Shown here piece by piece: positions 1 through 42,515 of a DNA stretch of 42,515 nt; positions within the stretch are counted from its first letter, which is position 1; each line of letters begins with the position of its first letter. The notes beneath the pieces were generated by a model. The model worked only from the letters and a program-made list of their open reading frames with translations. It had not been told where the DNA came from and made no database searches. A program made the position numbers and the translations under genes. Source of the DNA: a phage; sequence record PP754824.1; one strand, written 5' to 3'.

Positions 1-381
1 AGAACGTCCCACTTTAGCGGCAACAACGCCACTTTCATTTACGAAAACCTTGTCACCAAATGCCGGAGCAGCTGCAAGAGTAGTGCGAACCCAAATACGA
101 CCAGAAGTCATTACGTTAACTGCCTCAAGGCCGCGAGCCTGACCATCTGGAGTCTCATAATGAGATTTAACAACAACGCCGTAAGGTTTAATTGCAGTTC
201 CTGATATAGCCGGAAGGGCAACAACCTTGTGACCATCTACTGGCTGAGCGGTGCTAACACCTACGAATGTTCCAACCGGGATTCTAGTGGCAGCAGTACC
301 ACCAACTACACAAGCACCATCGATATTATACAGGGAAGTATCAGCTACCATACCTGCCAGAGCTACAGAACGAATTGCCAT
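1..381 (-). CDS. 5' portion of a ~165-aa structural gene that wraps across the window ends (continues at 42275..42515); candidate head decoration protein by position
   Basis: ATG at 381 preceded by GGAG RBS; reading frame is open to position 1 and continues in the identical sequence at the window end; sits between protease/scaffold and major capsid genes as gpD does in lambda. Confidence 0.5.
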   Translation of the reverse strand, partial: MAIRSVALAGMVADTSLYNIDGACVVGGTAATRIPVGTFVGVSTAQPVDGHKVVALPAISGTAIKPYGVVVKSHYETPDGQARGLEAVNVMTSGRIWVRTTLAAAPAFGDKVFVNESGVVAAKVGRS

Positions 382-5813: not shown

Positions 5814-5889
5814 TGGTGTTCCGCGCTGGACTCGAACCAGCAACTAAGACTTAGGAGGTCTTTGCGTTATCCTGTTACGCCAGCAGAAC
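5814..5889 (-). tRNA. tRNA-Arg (anticodon CCU), CCA encoded
   Basis: Hand-folded cloverleaf on the minus strand: 7-bp acceptor stem GTTCTGC/GCGGAAC (one G-U), D-arm GCGT/ACGC, anticodon stem AAGAC/GTCTT with loop CTCCTAA, T-arm GCTGG-TTCGAGT-CCAGC, discriminator A, CCA. Confidence 0.8.
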
Positions 5890-7966: not shown

Positions 7967-8074
7967 TCAGTTATTACTGATTGCCACGCGAAGAATTGAG
8001 TAACCATCACGCTGCGCAATTCTTACGATTTCCTCGCCACTTAGCTTCACATCATTGAAATCAAACATTCCCAT
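7967..8074 (-). pseudogene. short ORF (35 aa) paralogous to the N-terminus of the 527-aa P-loop protein; probable remnant of an internally deleted gene copy
   Basis: MGMFDFNDVKLSGEEIVRIAQRDGYSILRVAISNN versus MFDFNEDKLSVEQVMAIAATDNLPPLRVAINAN; followed about 85 nt later by the C-terminal-domain paralogue. Confidence 0.45.
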
Positions 8075-8592
8075 TATTTGGTCTCCTTGATAAGTTCCTG
8101 GTAAGCGGTTAGTGCGAACATTGCGCCATTAAGCTCCTCGCCTTTCAGGTGGATTACGCTCGGAGTAACTGCAAGAAGTCGCTTCTTGAACTTCTCAATG
8201 ATAGCCGCCTCCCTCTCTTCCCCTGCTTTGCTTCGTGAGCCATGATTGATTGCACCAGGAACAAGCGAGATTACCGCAGAACGAACCTCCTCACCATTAA
8301 ACTCCATATCCTTTATCGAGAACATGGACCTGACGTTTGCAGCCTTAATTTCAGGCATGCGACTTACTGTGTTTGAAACGTATGAGGACTTCAGCTTATT
8401 GAGATTGTACTTACCATCCGGCTTAAGGTCTTCATCATAAACCTTGCTAATTTCCTCCTTGCTAAGCCCGTACACCTGGCGAACAATCATACGCACTGGT
8501 ACTGCAAATGATTTCGTGTCGCTATTTAAAGCCTGAGTCGCCATGTAGCGAACTACTTCACCAAGACTTACTGCTTCTTTACGTTCTGACAT
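8074..8592 (-). CDS. hypothetical early protein (172 aa)
   Basis: ORF track; first gene of the leftward early unit. Confidence 0.55.
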   Translation of the reverse strand: MSERKEAVSLGEVVRYMATQALNSDTKSFAVPVRMIVRQVYGLSKEEISKVYDEDLKPDGKYNLNKLKSSYVSNTVSRMPEIKAANVRSMFSIKDMEFNGEEVRSAVISLVPGAINHGSRSKAGEEREAAIIEKFKKRLLAVTPSVIHLKGEELNGAMFALTAYQELIKETK

Positions 8593-8634: not shown

Positions 8635-8662
8635 ATAGTATCACACATCTACATGTTATCAA
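8635..8662 (-). promoter_or_regulatory. candidate sigma70-type early leftward promoter (-35 TTGATA, 16-nt spacer, -10 TACTAT)
   Basis: Read on the minus strand about 40 nt upstream of the 8592 start; overlaps three spaced TGTTATC repeats. Confidence 0.4.
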
Positions 8663-8845
8663 GTGTTATCTCATGTTATTTTCAGCCAGATACGCCAAAC
8701 CACTCTGAGAGCCGCGCCAGAAGCGGTGTAAATGTCGTGTGTATGAATTTCCGCGGAAATGTCGGGGGTATACCTATATATATTAATATAGATAAATATA
8801 GTCATTTTCATAAAAAACTATCGACCCTCCCCATATGACAGATAT

Positions 8846-8950
8846 ACAAGATATACATATATATAATAATAATAATAATAATAAAGTAAAAGGTTGATAT
8901 ATATAGATATTATTATGTAACCATTGCGTAATTGCGCGTTATAGGCGTAC
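8846..8950. repeat. AT-rich ~100-bp element, copy A, with (TAA)n microsatellite
   Basis: Near-identical to 24310..24420: shared GATATACA, (ATA/TAA)n, AGTAAAAGGTTGATATATATAGATATT, ATGTAACCA, TGCGTAA. Confidence 0.7.
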
Positions 8951-9111
8951 AGCATTCCTACGGAGGGTGGGTGCATCTACACAACATAACTTCGGTAACG
9001 TGTACATCCAAAATGGCTCAGCCAGAATCAAAATCAACTTGTATGGTAGTCCTTCCTCTATTCATTCACTCCAACACAAATAATTGCTAAATTCGCAACA
9101 ATCAAAAAAAT

Positions 9112-9180
9112 CATTGCATCAGATGCAATATTGCTATATGTGCAATAATGAGATGAATCATTGCAATAACTGCAATAATA
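9112..9180. repeat. iteron-like cluster of five TGCAAT(A) repeats including palindrome ATTGCATCAGATGCAAT
   Basis: Direct reading of the non-coding region just upstream of the rightward early promoter. Confidence 0.5.
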
Positions 9181-9193
9181 CATAAACCCAACG

Positions 9194-9239
9194 AATAGCA
9201 CTTTTTGCTAATGACAAACATTGGTAACGAGACCATAAT
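9194..9239 (+). promoter_or_regulatory. conserved promoter box (AATAGCACTTTTTGCTAA), about 22-nt spacer, -10 CATAAT
   Basis: Plus-strand copy ahead of the rightward early genes; leader CATCAACAACGAGGAGAGAGAT precedes the ATG at 9267. Confidence 0.55.
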
Positions 9240-9464: not shown

Positions 9465-9655
9465 TGAAAGTTAAGTGCTTAAATAATCTTAATGATGGAA
9501 CCTGGGAATTTAGAAACGGAAAGCATTACATTTATGATGAAATTTATGGTTACGTAGTTGGTGACAACTTCAAACCAGTTTACTGCTACATTGATGATGG
9601 ACGTGTCATTGCAGCAATTAAAAATAGGCTTATTTTTGAAACAGTAGAAGGTTAG
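9461..9655 (+). CDS. hypothetical early protein (start trimmed to the ATGA overlap)
   Basis: ORF track 9437..9655; ATG at 9461 overlaps the upstream TGA stop. Confidence 0.45.
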   Translation: MMKVKCLNNLNDGTWEFRNGKHYIYDEIYGYVVGDNFKPVYCYIDDGRVIAAIKNRLIFETVEG

Positions 9656-9656
9656 C

Positions 9657-9860
9657 ATGAAACTACTTTGCACCAATATCATTAAAGACTTTAACGACGC
9701 GTTCAATAAGGGCTCTGAATACAACGCTACCGATTTCAAAGATGACATGTGCCTTGTTACCGGAGAGCGTCCACATAAGCATCACGACACGTTTCAGGCT
9801 CTTAAATGCCTTGATTACGTCGTCATCCCAGGCATCGCAACTTTTAAGGTGATTGAATAA
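9657..9860 (+). CDS. hypothetical early protein (67 aa)
   Basis: ORF track. Confidence 0.45.
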   Translation: MKLLCTNIIKDFNDAFNKGSEYNATDFKDDMCLVTGERPHKHHDTFQALKCLDYVVIPGIATFKVIE

Positions 9861-10021
9861 TGCTATTACCATCTGAGATTAACTATTTTGATCTGGAAGT
9901 TATTAGTTCTTACAGCGGCAAGGGCTGGCCTTGCGGGGAATGGTTCAACGAGGACTTGCTTGAATCTCACGAGATTATGCTTAAGGCGATTGAGAAGGCG
10001 AGAAATAGCACGAATTGCTAA
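9860..10021 (+). CDS. small hypothetical protein (53 aa)
   Basis: Hand-translated; ATG overlaps upstream TAA; coding 3' end (ARNSTNC) is encoded by the promoter box. Confidence 0.35.
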   Translation: MLLPSEINYFDLEVISSYSGKGWPCGEWFNEDLLESHEIMLKAIEKARNSTNC

Positions 10022-20376: not shown

Positions 20377-20407
20377 ATTGCCTGAAAGATGGTAGAATGA
20401 ATTTTAT

Positions 20408-20423
20408 CAATTAGTGCTATTTT
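20408..20423 (-). promoter_or_regulatory. box-family copy in anomalous orientation upstream of the plus-strand tail fibre gene
   Basis: Plus strand reads CAATTAGTGCTATTTT, i.e. the box on the minus strand; no good -10 at the 22-nt spacing. Confidence 0.3.
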
Positions 20424-20441: not shown

Positions 20442-21620
20442 ATGGCAATTTATGATTCTGGCACAGCAAGCCTGGCAGCCAACGGTACCGTAACTGGTAC
20501 TGGAACCAACTGGATGGCTCCGCTTACTCTCATTCGTGTAGGCGCCACTATTGTGTTCAAAACTGAACCAGTGAAGATTTACACTATCTCTGAAATTATC
20601 AGCGATACGCAGATTAATGTATACAACCCAAATTCTGAAACCGTTGCTGCTGGAACTGGTTACGCCATTCTTCTTCATGATGGTATTACAGTTCAGGGTT
20701 TGGCACAGGACGTAGCCGAGACGCTTAGATTTTATCAGTCAAATAATTATGTGAGCGGTGGTGATGATGGGAATGTAAAATTAGAGAACGGAGGAACAGG
20801 AGCTAGTACAGCACCTGAAGCGCGTAACAACCTCGGGCTTGGTCCATTGTCCACAGTTAATGTGGCTCCAATAGAGAACGGAGGAACAGGAGCTAGTACA
20901 GCACCTGAAGCGCGTAACAACCTCGGGCTTGGAACTTCTGCTGTCATTGATCATGGCTATGATCCTGGGCAGGTTCAACTAGTTTTTGGATCAAGGATAA
21001 TGCGAACCGACAAGCCCAAAACAACCTGGACGTATGGATATGAACCTATTAGTCCAACCAACTTATACTACCTAGATTATGTTGTATTTATGGATATGCC
21101 TGGACCAACTGCTAGAGAGTGGGCTCAGCTTGCCGTTTCTTATGCGGAAAGGAGATGCTATATAGCTAACTCAACTTATAATAACGGCCTTGGGTTCATG
21201 GAACTTTACCACTCACAAAACGTAACCGTAGACTCTAACGGTTTCCTTAAAAAGGCTTCTCCTATAATTAAAGTCTTCAGTGATGGTGGTTTTGAAACAA
21301 ACGAGCAATCAAAGGGAGCTACAGTGGAGAGAGTTTCCACTGGTGTTTATAGGGTATCAGGTGTGCTTGGTCTAAATTCGGATGCCTCCTGGGGTGGTGT
21401 TAATGGTGGCTTTGAGATACCTTTAGATGCAAACAAGCAGCCAAGAATATGGCTAGATTATGAGGTTGAGTCTAATGGCTCAATAGTAGTAAAAACTTAC
21501 CATCGAACTCACGATTCATCCCCGTCCTTTGCAAGAAATAAAGTTGAAGGTTTTAGTAACGGCGATCCTATAGATATTCCTTCTGACTCTTTCGTTTCAA
21601 TTCGAGTAAATATGCCATAA
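20442..21620 (+). CDS. tail fibre protein with tandem fibre-repeat motifs (392 aa)
   Basis: Two copies of ENGGTGASTAPEARNNLGLG (phage tail-fibre repeat type); separate plus-strand transcription unit with own RBS and terminator. Confidence 0.7.
   Translation: MAIYDSGTASLAANGTVTGTGTNWMAPLTLIRVGATIVFKTEPVKIYTISEIISDTQINVYNPNSETVAAGTGYAILLHDGITVQGLAQDVAETLRFYQSNNYVSGGDDGNVKLENGGTGASTAPEARNNLGLGPLSTVNVAPIENGGTGASTAPEARNNLGLGTSAVIDHGYDPGQVQLVFGSRIMRTDKPKTTWTYGYEPISPTNLYYLDYVVFMDMPGPTAREWAQLAVSYAERRCYIANSTYNNGLGFMELYHSQNVTVDSNGFLKKASPIIKVFSDGGFETNEQSKGATVERVSTGVYRVSGVLGLNSDASWGGVNGGFEIPLDANKQPRIWLDYEVESNGSIVVKTYHRTHDSSPSFARNKVEGFSNGDPIDIPSDSFVSIRVNMP
20784..20932 (+). repeat. two perfect 59-bp direct repeats (20784..20842 and 20874..20932) inside the tail fibre gene
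   Basis: Identical nucleotide strings GAGAACGGAGGAACAGGAGCTAGTACAGCACCTGAAGCGCGTAACAACCTCGGGCTTGG. Confidence 0.9.
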
Positions 21621-21650: not shown

Positions 21651-22082
21651 TCAGAAGGGGATATCATCCTCGAAGTTCTTCTGCTGTTGAGGTTGACGCT
21701 GCTGCTGTTGTTGCTGTTGCTGCTGCTGTTGTTGCTGCTGCTGTTGTTGCTGAGGTTGTGAATCACCACGCTGACTAAACTCAAGTCGAGGGTTGTTCAT
21801 ATTGATCGTTACGTAGGTCTTACCATCTTTATCACGAACATCAACAGCCAGGCTTTCAGCGCTCACGCTAACAACTTTACCCTCCTGGAACGCCTCGTTG
21901 TACCAATCTAACATTGACTCTTTAGCGAAGAAGACGGCGCGATAGTTACTATACTGTGCATTCCCATCTTTATCCTTGTATCTCTCACTCAAGTCAACCG
22001 CAAACATTTTCCAGTTACCATTTGCGTTTTGACCTTCTTTGGTGAATGGGGCGCGGCGAATCTGACCAGTAATTACGTGCAT
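21651..22082 (-). CDS. ssb: single-stranded DNA-binding protein with poly-Gln linker and acidic DDIPF tail
   Basis: OB-fold-like N-terminal region, run of about 20 Gln, C-terminal FEDDIPF as in bacterial and phage SSBs. Confidence 0.85.
   Translation of the reverse strand: MHVITGQIRRAPFTKEGQNANGNWKMFAVDLSERYKDKDGNAQYSNYRAVFFAKESMLDWYNEAFQEGKVVSVSAESLAVDVRDKDGKTYVTINMNNPRLEFSQRGDSQPQQQQQQQQQQQQQQQQQQRQPQQQKNFEDDIPF
21680..21758 (-). repeat. CAG/CAA trinucleotide tract encoding the SSB poly-Q linker
   Basis: Plus strand shows (CTG/TTG)n over about 75 nt. Confidence 0.9.
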
Positions 22083-22850: not shown

Positions 22851-23815
22851 TAGATTTCTTTGTATTGCTTTAGAGCCCACTCAGGGACTAGTAGTTCTTG
22901 CTCTGTTATGCCGTTCGAGTACCCAGGCCAGATATCTAGCTCCTTGCACTTCTTGTAAGTGGCAAGTGCCTCAAGATACTGGAGACGACCAATGCGAAGC
23001 TGTTCGTCAGTTAGGGTGTACAGCATTGGTAAGTATGGCTCCACCTTCTCCTGTGCCAGCAACCCCACAACAACCTTGCGCTTCTCGTTGAATGCTTTCA
23101 CAAACAGATCACGCTGAAGTGCCATTTTTGCAAGGTATCCGTGGTTGAATGCTGACTTACCGAATCCTTCCGGGCTTGCGTCTGCTGTCGTTTTGTAATC
23201 TGTGATCCGAACTGCTCCATCAACAACATCAACGTGGTCAATTCGAATCTTAACGCCGACTCCTAGAATCTCACCGAAGATCGATAACTCTTTCTGCGCC
23301 GTCTTACTGTTCACGATCGCATTATACGCCGGAATGTTGCAGAGGACCTCACACATCGCTACAACCTTGTCATAGTCTACTGCGCTAACTAGCTCCTTAC
23401 CATCCGCAAGCGCCTGGGCGCTCTCCTGCTGCTCAATTAACCATCCAACGGGCCAATCCTCACCAGATCGATACATCATCTCTATAAGCTCGCTATACCC
23501 CTTACCTGACGTGCCAGCTACACCAACTTCTTTAAGTGCTGATGATAATCCAGACTGACTTGTAATTAAGCCTTCAATCGAGTCAAGGTCTGTTGCGCGA
23601 AGGTATTCTTTTTCGAATACATCTTGCTCTAAAATCATCGTGTGGCTTAGCGTGCCGAACTTAAGCGCCTTGCTATCATTGTTGCGCTGCTTAAACTTCC
23701 ACTTGGCTGGTGATCCCTGGATAATCTCGACAAGCGAGCTACCTGAGATGTGTTCAGTTTCAGCGTGGTAAGCCTCGTTGCTTAGCTCCTCTCGCGTAAA
23801 AACTTTAAAGCTCAT
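22850..23815 (-). CDS. PD-(D/E)xK exonuclease (Cas4/RecB-nuclease-like) (321 aa)
   Basis: RIDHVDVVDGAVRITDYKTT motif block typical of phage recombination exonucleases. Confidence 0.65.
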   Translation of the reverse strand: MSFKVFTREELSNEAYHAETEHISGSSLVEIIQGSPAKWKFKQRNNDSKALKFGTLSHTMILEQDVFEKEYLRATDLDSIEGLITSQSGLSSALKEVGVAGTSGKGYSELIEMMYRSGEDWPVGWLIEQQESAQALADGKELVSAVDYDKVVAMCEVLCNIPAYNAIVNSKTAQKELSIFGEILGVGVKIRIDHVDVVDGAVRITDYKTTADASPEGFGKSAFNHGYLAKMALQRDLFVKAFNEKRKVVVGLLAQEKVEPYLPMLYTLTDEQLRIGRLQYLEALATYKKCKELDIWPGYSNGITEQELLVPEWALKQYKEI

Positions 23816-23818
23816 AAC

Positions 23819-24013
23819 TCACCCCTTGACCTTAACTACTTTAACAGACTTCAAATCTTCTTCAGTGAAGTAACCGGTCAGTACATCGCGGGCTTCTCCT
23901 TTGGTCTCGAATCTGTCTGCTTCGTTCTTATCCGTGGTGTAACCGGCCTCTCCTCCAAAGTAGCAGTCGCCGAACAGTGCGTTGTTTTTCTCTTTGATAA
24001 TGTAGTAGGTCAT
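23819..24013 (-). CDS. hypothetical protein (64 aa)
   Basis: ORF track. Confidence 0.45.
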   Translation of the reverse strand: MTYYIIKEKNNALFGDCYFGGEAGYTTDKNEADRFETKGEARDVLTGYFTEEDLKSVKVVKVKG

Positions 24014-24235
24014 TTATATATCTCTCTGGTTGATTGCTTTCGATGAGGTAACTATATATTCAGCACCGTAACCAGTCCAATTGGTTTTGCCAATCGTTGA
24101 TTTAAGTTTACGCGTGAATCTTTGTAATTTCGTGTAGGCATTGGCACTAGTTACGCTTTTTGGCATCTCAAGCCAGCCATAGCTCAATGTAAACATCGTG
24201 TATATCGTGTATGCCGTTTCTCGCTGAGGGTGCAT
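24014..24235 (-). CDS. hypothetical protein (73 aa)
   Basis: ORF track. Confidence 0.45.
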   Translation of the reverse strand: MHPQRETAYTIYTMFTLSYGWLEMPKSVTSANAYTKLQRFTRKLKSTIGKTNWTGYGAEYIVTSSKAINQRDI

Positions 24236-24309
24236 TGGTATAGCTGCCGCGCAATACTGTATAAATACACATGATATTAAAATTATAACCGGAACACTCT
24301 ATAGAAGTA

Positions 24310-24420
24310 GTTACATGATATACACAGTAATATATATAATAATAATAATAAGAGTAAAAGGTTGATATATATAGATATTTTAATGTAACCAATGCGTAAA
24401 TTGGCGTAACAGCGCGTATA
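24310..24420. repeat. AT-rich ~100-bp element, copy B, with (TAA)n microsatellite
   Basis: Near-identical to 8846..8950; lies in the second divergent intergenic region. Confidence 0.7.
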
Positions 24421-24499
24421 TCATTTCCCGCGGATGAGATTGTATACATCGAGTTACATCGGTTACGTGTAACTGTGATTTATGGTGAAATTGTCGATA

Positions 24500-24544
24500 A
24501 ATAGCACGATTTGCTAAAGACAACTGGCTATCTTTAGGTATATT
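24500..24544 (+). promoter_or_regulatory. conserved promoter box (AATAGCACGATTTGCTAA), 22-nt spacer, -10 TATATT
   Basis: Plus-strand copy ahead of the 24625..26101 gene set. Confidence 0.55.
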
Positions 24545-24624
24545 TAGGCGCGTGGCGGCAATGGTGCTGTCAACTCCTCCTCAAATTGAGGAAAAGAACT
24601 TAGTTAACTCCTCAAATCTTAGGA

Positions 24625-25314
24625 ATGAAAAACAAAAGAGAGACGAAAATGAACTTAGCATTACTTAATGAAGACGTAAAAATGAATAGTTATCAGTTTT
24701 TAAATGAAGTTATCAACCCAGCGAGGTTGATCGCTGGGGAGTCCAATGTTCGACACAATGACTTTGTTGAGAGAATAGAGGATGAGCTTGAAGGGTTTGA
24801 GTTTGACTACGAAAGTTTCGTAATCAAGAGTGAGGGTAGAGGAGGTTATAGAAAGTCAATCAACTCACCAGTGCTCAATATGGAACAGATGCTTTTGATT
24901 GGGATGAGAGAATCAAAGTTCGTTCGTCGCGCAGTGCTTGCTAAGCTTAAAGAAATGCAAAGCACCATCAACAAGCAAGCGGAAGTAATCAGTCAGATGG
25001 TAAGCATTGATGAACTTAAAGAGGAAAGAATGAAGAATGGATACCTGCAAGCGCAGAATGCTCACTTGATCCAGAGAATCGTAGCTGAGCAGCGAATTAC
25101 TGAAATCACCCTGTCAGATAAGGAACTTGACAAGAAGATTGATGAGCTAGCGTGCGAGGCTCGGCAGTGCTGGTCAAGTCGCTCTGATGAGATGGAGTTG
25201 AGATTCAAGTATGAAACACAGTGCTTCGCACTTAAGGAAAAGGTAGGTGCACTGACTGGATTGATTGAGAATAATCTAGGAATTGATATCAAGTTGCTAC
25301 TTAAAGATAAGTAG
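24625..25314 (+). CDS. hypothetical protein with coiled-coil C-terminal half (229 aa)
   Basis: ORF track; alternative ATG at 24649; TAG stop is followed by a degenerate box TAGCACTAATGACC. Confidence 0.5.
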   Translation: MKNKRETKMNLALLNEDVKMNSYQFLNEVINPARLIAGESNVRHNDFVERIEDELEGFEFDYESFVIKSEGRGGYRKSINSPVLNMEQMLLIGMRESKFVRRAVLAKLKEMQSTINKQAEVISQMVSIDELKEERMKNGYLQAQNAHLIQRIVAEQRITEITLSDKELDKKIDELACEARQCWSSRSDEMELRFKYETQCFALKEKVGALTGLIENNLGIDIKLLLKDK

Positions 25315-36754: not shown

Positions 36755-37081
36755 CTATTTCTTGGCGTTCATCATATCTAAGGCTTTAGCCTCAAGTATT
36801 CTGATATCGTTAAGTACCATTTCTTCATCATCTATTTTATAGACTTTGAACAAGAATGGAAGGCAATTATAATCAAGGCCTGTGGCACCGCAAGCACCTA
36901 CTCGCCATTGTGTCGACATAGCACAGTACACATCCCAGCTTTGCATCATTGTTTCATCGAAGTGTAACTCTTCAGGCTCCTCACCTTCATAATCGGAACG
37001 TTTCATTCCGATAGCTTCGAGTTCGGCATCCGTTGGCGGTGACTGGTATTGTAAGTATACTGCGCGTTTTAGTTTTTTACT
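36755..37081 (-). CDS. tail assembly chaperone G-T, -1 frame extension (fusion made by programmed frameshift from 37069..37383)
   Basis: Reading the -1 frame from the A_AAA_AAC slippery heptamer runs without a stop into ORF 36755..37006. Confidence 0.65.
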   Translation of the reverse strand, partial: SKKLKRAVYLQYQSPPTDAELEAIGMKRSDYEGEEPEELHFDETMMQSWDVYCAMSTQWRVGACGATGLDYNCLPFLFKVYKIDDEEMVLNDIRILEAKALDMMNAKK

Positions 37082-42274: not shown

Positions 42275-42515
42275 TTAAGCCACAGTTGAGTCTGCGGATT
42301 GAATCAGCTGAACTTCAACCAGTGCGCCATCAACGCTTTCACTAGCTGATACATAGCCACCAGCAAATGTGAAACCAGTTCCCCAGGTAGAACGTCCCAC
42401 TTTAGCGGCAACAACGCCACTTTCATTTACGAAAACCTTGTCACCAAATGCCGGAGCAGCTGCAAGAGTAGTGCGAACCCAAATACGACCAGAAGTCATT
42501 ACGTTAACTGCCTCA
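42275..42515 (-). CDS. 3' portion of the wrap-around structural gene (joins 1..381)
   Basis: Frame is open from the window end down to the TAA at 42275; the last 127 nt duplicate positions 1..127. Confidence 0.5.
   Translation of the reverse strand, partial: EAVNVMTSGRIWVRTTLAAAPAFGDKVFVNESGVVAAKVGRSTWGTGFTFAGGYVSASESVDGALVEVQLIQSADSTVA
42389..42515. repeat. 127-bp exact duplicate of positions 1..127 (terminal overlap of a circular or terminally redundant genome)
   Basis: Direct comparison of the first and last 127 nt. Confidence 0.95.

What the first reader, a model, noticed from the sequence alone, without database searches (positions are those of the whole stretch)
24310..24420. Copy B of the duplicated AT-rich element, spuriously spanned by a tyrosine-rich ORF
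This is the second copy of the element described at 8846..8950, in the divergent region between 24014..24235 (minus) and the plus-strand units starting at 24500. ORF 24168..24449 in the track translates the microsatellite as YYYYYIYY and is almost certainly not a gene. Gene callers will tend to annotate it, hiding a regulatory element.
Basis: seen in the sequence. Interest (0 to 1): 0.5.

Follow-up and report, generated by a model that had tools for sequence, protein, structure and literature searches.

The report
Duplicated conserved AT-rich phage control element
The tyrosine-rich "gene" is an artefact: it lies over one of two copies of a highly conserved, non-coding, easily melted DNA module of T1/Rtp-like coliphages, which looks built to bind proteins and open the helix and is most likely a replication origin or an early control site.

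Summary
The window is a complete Rtp-like coliphage genome (Drexlerviridae); its closest relative is TR3. 24310-24420 is a true paralogue of 8846-8950 (E about 1e-25), and the homology extends to about 300 bp (24172-24472 versus 8710-9007).

ORF 24168-24449(-) is not a gene. It has no Shine-Dalgarno sequence. Its codon-usage score is -0.21 per codon, against +0.30 ± 0.08 for real genes. It has no Pfam or PHROG hit. Frameshifts or stops break it in 4 of 8 relatives, although the DNA is 92-100% identical. Only TR3 and three other database entries annotate it.

Module B is more conserved than its flanking genes (0.88-1.00 versus 0.70-0.78 pairwise identity), and it persists where the flanking genes are replaced.

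All 27 distinct copies share one architecture:
- two TACR sites;
- a 64 ± 1 bp AT-only spacer holding (ATA)5-7, GGTTGWTATATATAGATA and an IHF-consensus match;
- four YGTA sites phased at 11/10/10 bp.

The two cores are the least stable duplex in the window, Rtp and T1. Each lies between outward-facing promoter-like sites.

Best reading (about 0.42): a paired replication-origin-type unwinding element, like SPP1 oriL/oriR. The main rival is an early transcription control hub. Function is inferred, not shown.

The parts
24172..24472 (.). Module B: the conserved non-coding unit, which contains the reported 24310-24420
   Evidence: In 13 distinct sequences, mean pairwise identity is 0.88-1.00 over 24280-24460, against 0.70-0.78 in the flanking CDS. 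The left flank is non-homologous in ESCO41 from about 24170. The right flank diverges from about 24472.
24168..24449 (-). Spurious tyrosine-rich ORF (93 aa)
   Evidence: No SD. Codon-usage log-ratio -0.21 per codon. No Pfam or PHROG hit. Frame broken in 4 of 8 relatives. Annotated in TR3 only, plus 3 other database entries.
24195..24212 (+). 9-bp tandem repeat, ATCGTGTAT x2, in the left part of the module
   Evidence: TRF. GTATATCGTGTAT is invariant in 13 sequences.
24312..24324 (+). Left pair of TACA sites (reverse complement of YGTA) at 24312 and 24321, 9 bp apart
   Evidence: Found at -48/-39 (+/-1) from the core start in all 27 distinct copies but one, which lacks the outer site.
24328..24383 (.). 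AT-only spacer, the candidate unwinding core, including (ATA)5.3 at 24336-24351
   Evidence: Second least stable duplex in the genome (z = 4.6-5.2; the next unrelated site is about 3.2). The syntenic site ranks the same way in Rtp and T1. TRF.
24355..24367 (-). Match to the IHF consensus WATCAANNNNTTR (TATCAACCTTTTA)
   Evidence: 6 matches in the genome against 2.8 expected, two of them in the A and B cores. The site carries a T-to-A change in 3 of 7 A1-type copies.
24360..24377 (+). Core GGTTGATATATATAGATA
   Evidence: Exactly two occurrences per genome in six phages. Note that it is invariant by construction in the collected set.
24385..24419 (+). Four phased YGTA sites (TGTAAC, GCGTAA, GCGTAAC, GCGTAT) at 24385, 24396, 24406 and 24416
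   Evidence: Offsets are +8, +19, +29/30 and +38/39 from the core end. The first two are present in all 27 distinct copies, the third in 22 and the fourth in 25. The spacers between them vary.
24445..24466 (+). 10-bp tandem repeat TACATCGGT(T) x2.3, followed by GTTACGTGTAAC at the right edge of the module
   Evidence: TRF. GTAAC/GTTAC occurs 6 times in the module against 0.86 expected.
24051..24079 (-). Leftward sigma70-like promoter (TGGACT-17-TATAGT) with the phage-typical TTACCTCATCGAAA leader, lying inside ORF 24014-24235
   Evidence: Promoter scan. It has the same -10 and leader pattern as the 15 repeat-associated promoters.
23819..24013 (-). First well-supported leftward gene (64 aa, MTYYIIKEKNN...)
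   Evidence: Codon-usage log-ratio +0.32. Matches phrog_5247. Its cluster has 33 members. Intact in all relatives that share this flank.
24014..24235 (-). Doubtful ORF (IME253 gp65), probably untranslated upstream DNA
   Evidence: Stops in IME542, L023 and L007. Codon-usage log-ratio -0.02. No third-position excess. No SD. Contains the promoter-like site listed above.
24501..24544 (+). Rightward promoter: 21-nt repeat ATAGCACGATTTGCTAAA plus AAGACA-16-TATATT
   Evidence: This repeat family is described for TLS, T1 and Rtp in PMC11447400.
8710..9007 (.). Module A, the paralogous copy: TACA at 8845 and 8854; (ATA)7.3 at 8863-8884; core 8892-8909; YGTA at 8917, 8928 and 8947
   Evidence: It is the least stable duplex in the genome (z = 4.9-6.2).
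9040..9180 (.). Packaging-start zone next to module A only (GCAAT-rich 30-bp tandem at 9121-9179). It is absent at B
   Evidence: The MSK PhageTerm start at 36,862 (PMC8421802) maps to about 9046. Rtp record position 1 maps to about 9135. T1 record position 1, with terminal repeat 1-2800, lies in the syntenic region. TRF.

Best explanation
Shown: 24310-24420 is the centre of a roughly 300-bp non-coding module (24172-24472). The genome holds two paralogous copies; the other is at 8710-9007. Each copy sits at one of the two large divergent intergenic regions of an Rtp/T1-like virulent phage. The ORF across it is an artefact of reading (TAT)n as tyrosines.

Every copy has the same layout. Two TACR sites (YGTA on the other strand) lie 9 bp apart. 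A 64 +/- 1 bp AT-only spacer follows; it is the easiest DNA in the genome to melt, and it holds (ATA)5-7, GGTTGWTATATATAGATA and a match to the IHF consensus. Then come up to four YGTA sites on one face of the helix (11/10/10 bp).

Inferred: this is a protein-binding and unwinding element, most likely a replication origin of the 'direct repeats plus AT-rich unwinding element' kind, present twice as in SPP1 oriL/oriR. A phage replication protein would bind the opposed YGTA arrays; the conserved DUF3987 helicase and the Cro-like HTH protein are candidates. IHF would bend the spacer. Negative supercoiling from the two outward-firing promoters would help open the AT tract, so that the phage helicase and primase and the host polymerase can start. 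Copy A also adjoins the packaging start. Copy B adjoins the exonuclease/Erf/SSB recombination genes.
For: - Duplication.
- Non-coding status.
- Conservation above that of flanking genes, and survival of the module where flanks are replaced.
- Site positions and spacer length fixed in 27 distinct copies, although classes are only 63-72% identical to each other (B-B 95.5%).
- The two cores are the two least stable duplex regions in the window, in Rtp and in T1 (z about 5-6, next about 3).
- T1's two elements are also paralogous (52.5 bits; block shuffles 25.6 +/- 4.3, maximum 41.1).
- Outward-facing promoter-like sites on both sides of both modules.
- The phage encodes its own helicases and primase: DUF3987 (PHROG 'DNA helicase', 90-94% conserved), a Zn-ribbon primase and a further helicase with a Helicase_C domain. 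The T1 primase is annotated as similar to P4-type alpha protein.
- No origin has been identified for T1-like phages in the TLS 2024 and SU57 2020 papers.
- Precedent: SPP1, a 44-kb virulent pac siphovirus, has two similarly organised origins about 13 kb apart, each made of direct repeats plus an AT-rich unwinding element (PMC6316719).
Against: - There is no experimental evidence of origin activity, protein binding or melting. Every functional step is inferred from anatomy.
- AT-rich DNA between divergent promoters is also what a promoter or regulatory hub looks like. The EC3a record places two predicted promoters inside the core.
- The near-invariance of B could reflect binding by invariant host factors (RNA polymerase, IHF) rather than a phage initiator.
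- A third divergent node (18813|18910) has no such element.
- The IHF match is not statistically exceptional genome-wide, and it is weakened in some A copies.
- GC skew follows gene orientation and gives no independent signal.
- No homologue of a known origin-binding protein was shown, and the DUF3987 protein has no solved relative.
- The sequences were collected by exact match to the 18-nt core, so the invariance of that core is circular.
Confidence: 0.42

Rival explanations
1. Early transcription control hub. The two modules would be paralogous control regions, comparable to lambda oL/oR, for the two divergent early nodes. The AT core would carry or enhance sigma70 promoters (leftward TTTACT-16/18-TATTAT/TATATT, with the (TTA)n run as spacer and -10). 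IHF would bend the DNA. A regulator would occupy the phased YGTA sites to switch early transcription on or off. Candidates are the phage Cro-like protein or a host OmpR/CpxR-type winged-helix protein.
For: - Promoter-like hexamers lie in the core of both copies, and the EC3a annotators predicted two promoters there.
- The leftward operons leaving A and B are the only ones without the 21-nt repeat, so they could form a separate temporal class.
- A perfect TATAAT on the minus strand at 24287..24282 is invariant.
- GTAAA-N5-GTAAC at 24396-24410 resembles the CpxR box (own knowledge).
- The phage encodes a Cro-like HTH protein.
- Near-invariance of B fits recognition by unchanging host proteins.
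Against: - Promoter-like matches are only 9 of 12 and not clearly above shuffles (6 found against 3.0 +/- 1.7).
- Better promoters, with the phage-typical leader, lie outside the module next to the genes: 24079..24051 and 8662..8635. In T1 the recE operon has its own TTGACT-16-TATAAT (read).
- About 300 bp of constraint, opposed site arrays and a rigid 64-bp AT spacer are more than a sigma70 promoter needs.
Confidence: 0.3
2. Packaging-related site: a recognition or assembly site for small terminase, with cutting nearby.
For: Copy A lies 130-230 bp from the inferred packaging start: the MSK PhageTerm position maps to about 9046, and record position 1 of Rtp and T1 lies in that region. Repeats flanking an IHF site recall the P1 pac site (own knowledge).
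Against: Copy B has no counterpart of the 9010-9190 zone, and no packaging series from B is reported. B, not A, is the more conserved copy, while TerS is only about 65% identical between phages.
Confidence: 0.07
3. Conserved 'linker' for homologous recombination between co-infecting phages, or a recently spread selfish DNA segment, with no other function.
For: Mosaic breakpoints coincide with both module edges. Identity is far above that of the neighbouring DNA.
Against: The same two syntenic sites carry paralogous elements in T1, a different subfamily, so the arrangement is old. Site phasing is kept in copies that have diverged to 63-72% identity, which indicates selection on architecture rather than recent spread.
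Confidence: 0.07
4. ORF 24168-24449(-) encodes a real small Tyr-rich protein, or the module encodes a structured RNA.
For: The ORF bounds nearly coincide with the conserved module. TR3 and three other entries annotate a protein.
Against: - Frameshifts or stops in 4 of 8 relatives.
- No SD.
- Codon usage about 6 sd below real genes.
- No codon-position pattern in the substitutions.
- No Pfam or PHROG family.
- No Rfam match even at E <= 1.
- No terminator, and no conserved hairpin by inspection of the alignment.
Confidence: 0.03

Closest known systems
Bacillus phage SPP1 oriL / oriR (PMC6316719)
   Same: SPP1 is a virulent pac-type siphovirus of about 44 kb. It has two similarly organised elements about 13 kb apart (15.5 kb here). 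Each has direct repeats next to an AT-rich unwinding region, and the AT-rich islands are the strongest composition bias in the genome. An exonuclease, an annealing recombinase and SSB are involved in the later switch to concatemer synthesis; the equivalent genes lie next to copy B here.
   Different: There is no sequence similarity. SPP1 uses gp38/gp39/gp40 (origin binder, loader, DnaB-type helicase), whereas this phage has a DUF3987 helicase and a Zn-ribbon primase. SPP1 oriL lies inside gene 38; both copies here are intergenic, between divergent promoters. Origin activity is proven for SPP1 and untested here.
Satellite phage P4 ori + crr, bound by alpha protein (own knowledge; P4 primase/helicase noted in PMC7145576)
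   Same: Two separated cis sites carry the same short repeated binding motif. The replication proteins are of the P4 primase/helicase lineage: the T1 primase is annotated as alpha-like.
   Different: The P4 repeats are TGTTCACC-type octamers and crr is not an AT-rich unwinding element. Here both copies have the full layout. Binding was not tested.
Lambda oL / oR operator regions (own knowledge)
   Same: Two paralogous control regions, each at a node of early transcription, sharing the same repeated protein-binding sites. A Cro-like protein is encoded by the phage.
   Different: Lambda operators are 17-bp dyad-symmetric sites that overlap the promoters. Here the sites are short (about 5-6 bp), directly repeated at helical phase, and split into opposed arrays around a 64-bp AT tract. 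This phage is virulent.
SaPI/PICI origins and bacterial oriC (unwinding element + IHF + initiator boxes) (own knowledge; oriC features summarised in PMC11447400)
   Same: Sets of short repeats flank an AT-rich region that melts, with an IHF site as architectural helper.
   Different: No convincing DnaA boxes were seen by inspection (best partial match 8 of 9), and there are no GATC clusters in the module. There is no sequence similarity to SaPI iterons.
21-nt intergenic repeat aaATAGCACnnnTTGnTAAAA of T1-like phages (PMC11447400)
   Same: It is another conserved non-coding repeat family of the same phages, with function still open. One copy (24501-24518) lies 30 bp to the right of module B.
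   Different: It is a different sequence. It has 15 copies, always oriented with transcription and about 75 nt before start codons. It is not AT-extreme, and it is absent from the modules themselves.

Membership tests
Protein-coding gene (ORF 24168-24449, minus strand) | Reading frame kept intact in relatives | tested here: not met
   Frameshift or internal stop in IME542, L007, ESCO41 and UViG L023, and a premature stop in EC3a and Rtp.
Protein-coding gene (ORF 24168-24449, minus strand) | Ribosome-binding site and codon usage like the phage's genes | tested here: not met
   No SD upstream of the ATG at 24449. Codon-usage log-ratio -0.21 per codon, against +0.30 +/- 0.08 for long genes. Variable sites by codon position are 25/29/31.
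Protein-coding gene (ORF 24168-24449, minus strand) | Membership of a known protein family | tested here: not met
   No Pfam hit and no PHROG hit. Its 90% cluster has 4 members, none with a functional name.
Replication origin of the 'repeats + AT-rich unwinding element' kind (SPP1 oriL/oriR-like) | AT-rich, low-stability unwinding region | tested here: met
   The A and B cores are the two least stable duplex regions in the window, Rtp and T1.
Replication origin of the 'repeats + AT-rich unwinding element' kind (SPP1 oriL/oriR-like) | Arrays of short repeated sites adjacent to the unwinding region | tested here: met
   Two TACR sites and up to four YGTA sites at fixed offsets in 27 distinct copies, with the repeats conserved and the spacers between them variable.
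Replication origin of the 'repeats + AT-rich unwinding element' kind (SPP1 oriL/oriR-like) | Two similarly organised copies in one genome | tested here: met
   T1 also has two.
Replication origin of the 'repeats + AT-rich unwinding element' kind (SPP1 oriL/oriR-like) | Binding by a cognate initiator and support of replication initiation | not testable with these tools
   This needs EMSA or footprinting, plasmid replication assays or marker-frequency sequencing. No gp38 homologue was looked for. The phage's candidates are the DUF3987 helicase and the Cro-like HTH protein.
Sigma70 promoter | -35 and -10 hexamers with 16-18 bp spacing, better than chance | tested here: inconclusive
   Only 9-of-12 matches occur in the core. 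Six sites were found in 23800-24800, against 3.0 +/- 1.7 in shuffles. Any AT-rich tract yields -10-like hexamers.
IHF binding site | WATCAANNNNTTR with an AT-rich 5' flank | tested here: inconclusive
   Exact match at 24367..24355 and at 8899..8887. Genome-wide there are 6 matches against 2.8 expected, and 3 of 7 A1 copies carry TTGTT instead of TTGAT. Binding was not tested.
pac site (headful packaging start) | Coincides with mapped genome ends | tested here: not met
   For copy B, the end-proximal zone (window about 9040-9180) has no counterpart next to B. Copy A is adjacent to that zone but distinct from it.
Known RNA family (Rfam) | Covariance-model match | tested here: not met
   No match in 24000-24700 at E <= 1. 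In the whole window, only the tRNA reaches the gathering threshold.
Variable microsatellite (slippage-prone contingency repeat) | Repeat number varies between close relatives | tested here: not met
   The (ATA) run and total spacer length are constant in 13 of 14 distinct B copies; IME542 has one extra base. Site-to-site distance is kept within 1 bp across the A and B classes.

The most novel reading that the evidence does not exclude
T1-like phages (Drexlerviridae), whose origin of replication has never been identified, would use a paired origin. Two paralogous modules would each have opposed YGTA arrays that load the phage's DUF3987 (P4-alpha-lineage) helicase on either side of a fixed-length, IHF-bent AT tract, which is opened with help from divergent transcription. 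One copy would double as the neighbour of pac. The other, next to the exonuclease/Erf/SSB genes, would act as the fork barrier or recombination trigger for the switch from theta replication to concatemer synthesis, as proposed for SPP1 oriR.
Probability: 0.2. Interest if true: 0.7.

Novelty: new member of a known kind. Interest (0 to 1): 0.5.

Why it matters
T1-like phages are classic models, notorious laboratory and fermenter contaminants, and candidates for therapy. Yet their origin of replication, early control circuitry and pac recognition remain undefined: the TLS 2024 and SU57 2020 papers both report finding no origin.

This analysis identifies a discrete module of about 300 bp, present twice per genome. 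It is the most constrained DNA around it and the most meltable DNA in the genome, and its binding-site layout is precise enough to test directly.

It also flags annotation errors that hide the module. The Tyr-rich ORF is deposited as a CDS in TR3, ORF 24014-24235 is probably spurious, and several Tunavirus records place 'hypothetical proteins' over the equivalent T1 region.

If the module is the origin, it offers a handle for engineering these phages, for phage-dependent plasmids, and for sequence-specific anti-phage measures in fermentation strains.

Tried and rejected
- **Rfam.** Gathering threshold on the whole window and E <= 1 on 24000-24700 gave nothing apart from the tRNA.
- **GC skew.** It simply follows gene orientation and gives no independent origin signal.
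- **GATATAC/GTATAC motif.** Five of 7 GATATAC copies in the genome lie in the modules. However, total counts equal expectation and T1 shows no such clustering, so I dropped it as a family-wide site. The YGTA/TACR phasing is the more robust pattern.
- **GTAA-N6-GTAA and the IHF consensus.** Neither is significant as a genome-wide count. Only their positional conservation counts.
- **Co-variation of A-module type (A1/A2) with TerS or other proteins.** Too few loci contained terS to decide.
- **RNA hairpin CCAAT...ATTGG at 24388-24403.** Variants in relatives break it without compensating changes (by inspection).
- **Metagenome scan.** Of 91 stretches, only about 20 were true homologues; the rest were chance AT-rich matches.
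- **Related-loci search with the exonuclease protein.** It returned only 6 loci.
- **Original Rtp genome paper (J Bacteriol 2006).** It could not be read, so I cannot exclude that it mentions these AT-rich regions.
- **Literature search for transcription-start data.** One full-text search returned no T1-like phage transcription-start data.
- **PDB sequence search with the DUF3987 protein.** No hit.
- **Variable-site counts for the left-flank genes.** They are saturated by sequences with replaced flanks, so only the within-module counts are used.

Full report
**What the window is.** The 42,515-base window has identical 127-bp ends (1-127 = 42389-42515), so it is a circularly assembled complete genome of about 42.4 kb. 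It is an Rtp-like virulent coliphage (Drexlerviridae, Braunvirinae). The closest record is phage TR3, at 98% identity over 84% of a 24-kb query. Gene order is collinear with Rtp and T1.

**The observation.**
- The sequence at 24310-24420 is as described: a run of (ATA)5.3 at 24336-24351 inside an AT-rich tract.
- The minus-strand ORF 24168-24449 reads it as ...FYSYYYYYIYY....
- It is a genuine second copy of 8846-8950. blastn gives 82.5% identity over 114 nt with E = 6.6e-26, and a 60-nt ungapped block is 87% identical.
- Weaker homology extends from about 8729/24193 to 9007/24472.
- There are only two copies in the window.
- The 18-nt core GGTTGNTATATATAGATA occurs exactly twice per genome in Rtp, IME253, IME542, ESCO41, the 44,219-bp clade and a UViG.

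**The ORF is not a gene.**
- Its ATG at 24449 has no Shine-Dalgarno sequence.
- It overlaps ORF 24014-24235 by 68 nt.
- It has no Pfam or PHROG family.
- Its codon-usage log-ratio is -0.21 per codon. Nineteen long genes score +0.30 ± 0.08 (minimum +0.14), and six small real genes score +0.11 to +0.35.
- Variable sites are spread 25/29/31 over codon positions 1/2/3.
- The frame is destroyed in IME542 (+1 base), L007, ESCO41 and UViG L023, and shortened in EC3a and Rtp. The DNA of the core is nevertheless 91.6-100% identical in those same phages.
TR3 deposits it as CDS WVX92954.1, but its 90% cluster has only four members, against 33 for the neighbouring 64-aa gene. The IME253, Rtp and EC3a records do not call it.

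**The neighbouring ORF 24014-24235(-) is also doubtful.**
- It carries stops in three relatives.
- Its codon-usage log-ratio is -0.02.
- It has no SD.
- It contains a promoter-like site, TGGACT-17-TATAGT at 24079..24051, followed by the same 'TTACCTCATCGAAA' leader seen at the phage's other promoters.
- The first solid leftward gene is 23819-24013: codon-usage log-ratio +0.32, phrog_5247, and a 33-member cluster.

**What is really there.** I aligned region B from 9, and then 13, distinct phages.
- Mean pairwise identity is 0.88-1.00 across 24280-24460 and still about 0.9 at 24180-24220. The flanking coding DNA scores 0.70-0.78.
- The exonuclease next door is only 80-92% identical at protein level.
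- The module survives replacement of its neighbours. In ESCO41 the left flank is non-homologous from about 24170. On the right, homology ends at about 24472, where some phages join directly to a promoter plus a cor-type lipoprotein gene and others to an anti-repressor gene.
- The unit is therefore about 24172-24472.
- Collecting by exact match to the core makes the invariance of 24360-24377 circular. The conservation outside it is not.

**Architecture.** I compared 27 distinct copies from GenBank phages, IMG/VR and metagenomes. They fall into class B (95.5% mutual identity) and two A classes (A1, A2), which are 63-72% identical to B and to each other. All share one plan:
- two TACR sites (YGTA on the other strand), 9 bp apart, at -47/-48 and -38/-39 from the core;
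- an AT-only spacer whose length is fixed to ±1 bp, even though its content differs ((ATA)7 in A, ATATAT(ATA)5 in B);
- the core GGTTGWTATATATAGATA;
- up to four YGTA sites at +8, +19, +29/30 and +38/39 from the core end. The first two are in all 27 copies, the third in 22 and the fourth in 25. This puts them on one face of the helix, with conserved GCGTAA/GCGTAT units and variable spacers.

In the window these sites are TACA at 24312 and 24321 and GTA at 24385, 24396, 24406 and 24416. In copy A they are TACA at 8845 and 8854 and GTA at 8917, 8928 and 8947. So the 'microsatellite' is a length-constrained spacer, not a variable repeat.

The minus strand of both cores matches the IHF consensus (TATCAACCTTTTA). 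The match is not exceptional genome-wide, and it is weakened in three A1 copies.

**Physical property.** With nearest-neighbour energies, the A and B cores are the two least stable duplex regions of the genome at every window size (z = 4.6-6.2; the next unrelated site is about 3.2). The same holds for the two syntenic sites in Rtp and in T1, which belongs to a different subfamily. T1's two elements are also paralogous to each other: 52.5 bits, against 25.6 ± 4.3 (maximum 41.1) for shuffles that keep local AT content. T1 also shows 10-bp-phased GGCGTAATTT units next to its AT core (read). The arrangement therefore probably predates the split of these subfamilies.

**Context.**
- Fifteen copies of the known 21-nt repeat ATAGCACnnnTTGnTAAA mark promoters in the direction of transcription (PMC11447400).
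- Each module lies between a rightward promoter of that type (24501-24544; 9195-9239) and a leftward promoter-like site that lacks the repeat (24079..24051; 8662..8635).
- The AT tract therefore sits where two diverging polymerases would generate negative supercoiling (inference).
- Copy A is next to the packaging start. The MSK PhageTerm position (PMC8421802) maps to about 9046. Rtp's position 1 maps to about 9135. T1's position 1, with its terminal repeat, lies in the syntenic region.
- That zone (9040-9180, GCAAT-rich tandem repeats) has no counterpart at B, so the shared module is not pac itself.
- Copy B lies next to the exonuclease/Erf/SSB genes.

**Mechanism.**
- *Shown:* a non-coding, duplicated, strongly constrained module with opposed arrays of short phased sites around the most meltable DNA in the genome.
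- *Inferred:* it binds proteins in a fixed geometry and opens.
- The best fit is a replication origin of the 'direct repeats plus AT-rich unwinding element' type, present twice.
- The closest precedent is SPP1. It is a 44-kb virulent pac siphovirus with two similarly organised origins about 13 kb apart, whose AT-rich islands are its strongest composition bias (PMC6316719).
- This phage encodes its own DUF3987 helicase (90-94% conserved), a Zn-ribbon primase and a further helicase with a Helicase_C domain. T1's primase is annotated as P4-alpha-like.
- Recent papers state that no origin has been found for T1-like phages.
- I give this reading about 0.42.

**Rival explanations.**
- The main rival (about 0.30) is an early transcription control hub, analogous to lambda oL/oR. 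The core has promoter-like hexamers, and the EC3a annotators predicted promoters there. The two leftward operons uniquely lack the 21-nt repeat. The invariance of B could reflect host factors. Against it, the promoter matches are weak, better promoters lie outside the module, and the rigid 64-bp spacer with opposed arrays exceeds what a promoter needs.
- Packaging (0.07), a pure recombination linker (0.07) and a real gene or RNA (0.03) are less likely, for the reasons given above.

**Novelty and verdict.** The kind of element is known. The finding is correct in its essentials and leads to a concrete, testable candidate for the missing origin or control region of T1-like phages.

Noticed in passing
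window 1-127 and 42389-42515: The two ends of the window are an identical 127-bp direct repeat. This is probably an assembly overlap of a circularly permuted genome, so the unique length is about 42,388 bp.
   Followed up: partly
window 24014-24235 (-): This ORF is annotated as a gene in IME253 (gp65). It has no SD and no codon-usage signal, carries stops in three relatives, and contains a promoter-like site with the phage-typical leader. In Rtp and EC3a it is fused to the downstream 64-aa gene as a 132-143-aa CDS, whereas a TAA at 24014-24016 separates them here. It is probably not translated.
   Followed up: partly
window 20403-20420 (-): An orphan copy of the 21-nt promoter-associated repeat sits between the primase gene (ends 20356) and the tail-fibre gene (starts 20442), on the opposite strand. 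It is followed by a terminator-like hairpin (AACCTCCCGAAGGAGGTT) rather than by a -10 element and a gene.
   Followed up: no
window 24257-24272 (+): CTGT-N8-ACAT, inside TACTGTATAAATACACAT, resembles a LexA box (CTGT-N8-ACAG). CTGT and ACAT are invariant in 13 sequences. It lies just downstream of an invariant perfect TATAAT on the minus strand (24287..24282). No heterology index was calculated.
   Followed up: no
window 9080-9180: A cluster of ATTGCA/TGCAAT motifs, including a 30-bp tandem repeat (9121-9179), lies next to copy A. Records of Rtp, T1 and several other phages start here, and a PhageTerm start from MSK maps nearby. This is the likely pac region, and it is absent at copy B.
   Followed up: partly
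window 20782-20842 and 20872-20932: A perfect 61-bp direct repeat, spaced 90 bp, lies inside the 392-aa ORF 20442-21620 (tail-fibre region). This may be a recent in-frame 30-codon duplication.
   Followed up: no
window 21682-21752: A degenerate TGC/TGT/TGT triplet array lies on the plus strand, inside the minus-strand SSB gene 21651-22082. It would encode a Q/A/T-rich low-complexity stretch.
   Followed up: no
L004 (TR3) 9623-9880 (+); Tunavirus records under hits H109, H118: Other deposited records place 'hypothetical protein' CDSs across the AT-rich modules. TR3 has one over copy A, and ULIM2 and CLB_P3 have 3-4 over the T1-type B region. Spurious ORF calls over these elements therefore recur.
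   Followed up: no
window 8074-8592 (-) and relatives: The first gene to the left of module A (DUF7174, the rtp1 homologue) is only 33-71% identical between phages whose DUF3987 helicase is 90-94% identical. This is a hypervariable early gene next to a conserved cis element.
   Followed up: no
window 5814-5889 (-): A tRNA-Arg (anticodon CCU), as reported for other T1-like phages.
   Followed up: no
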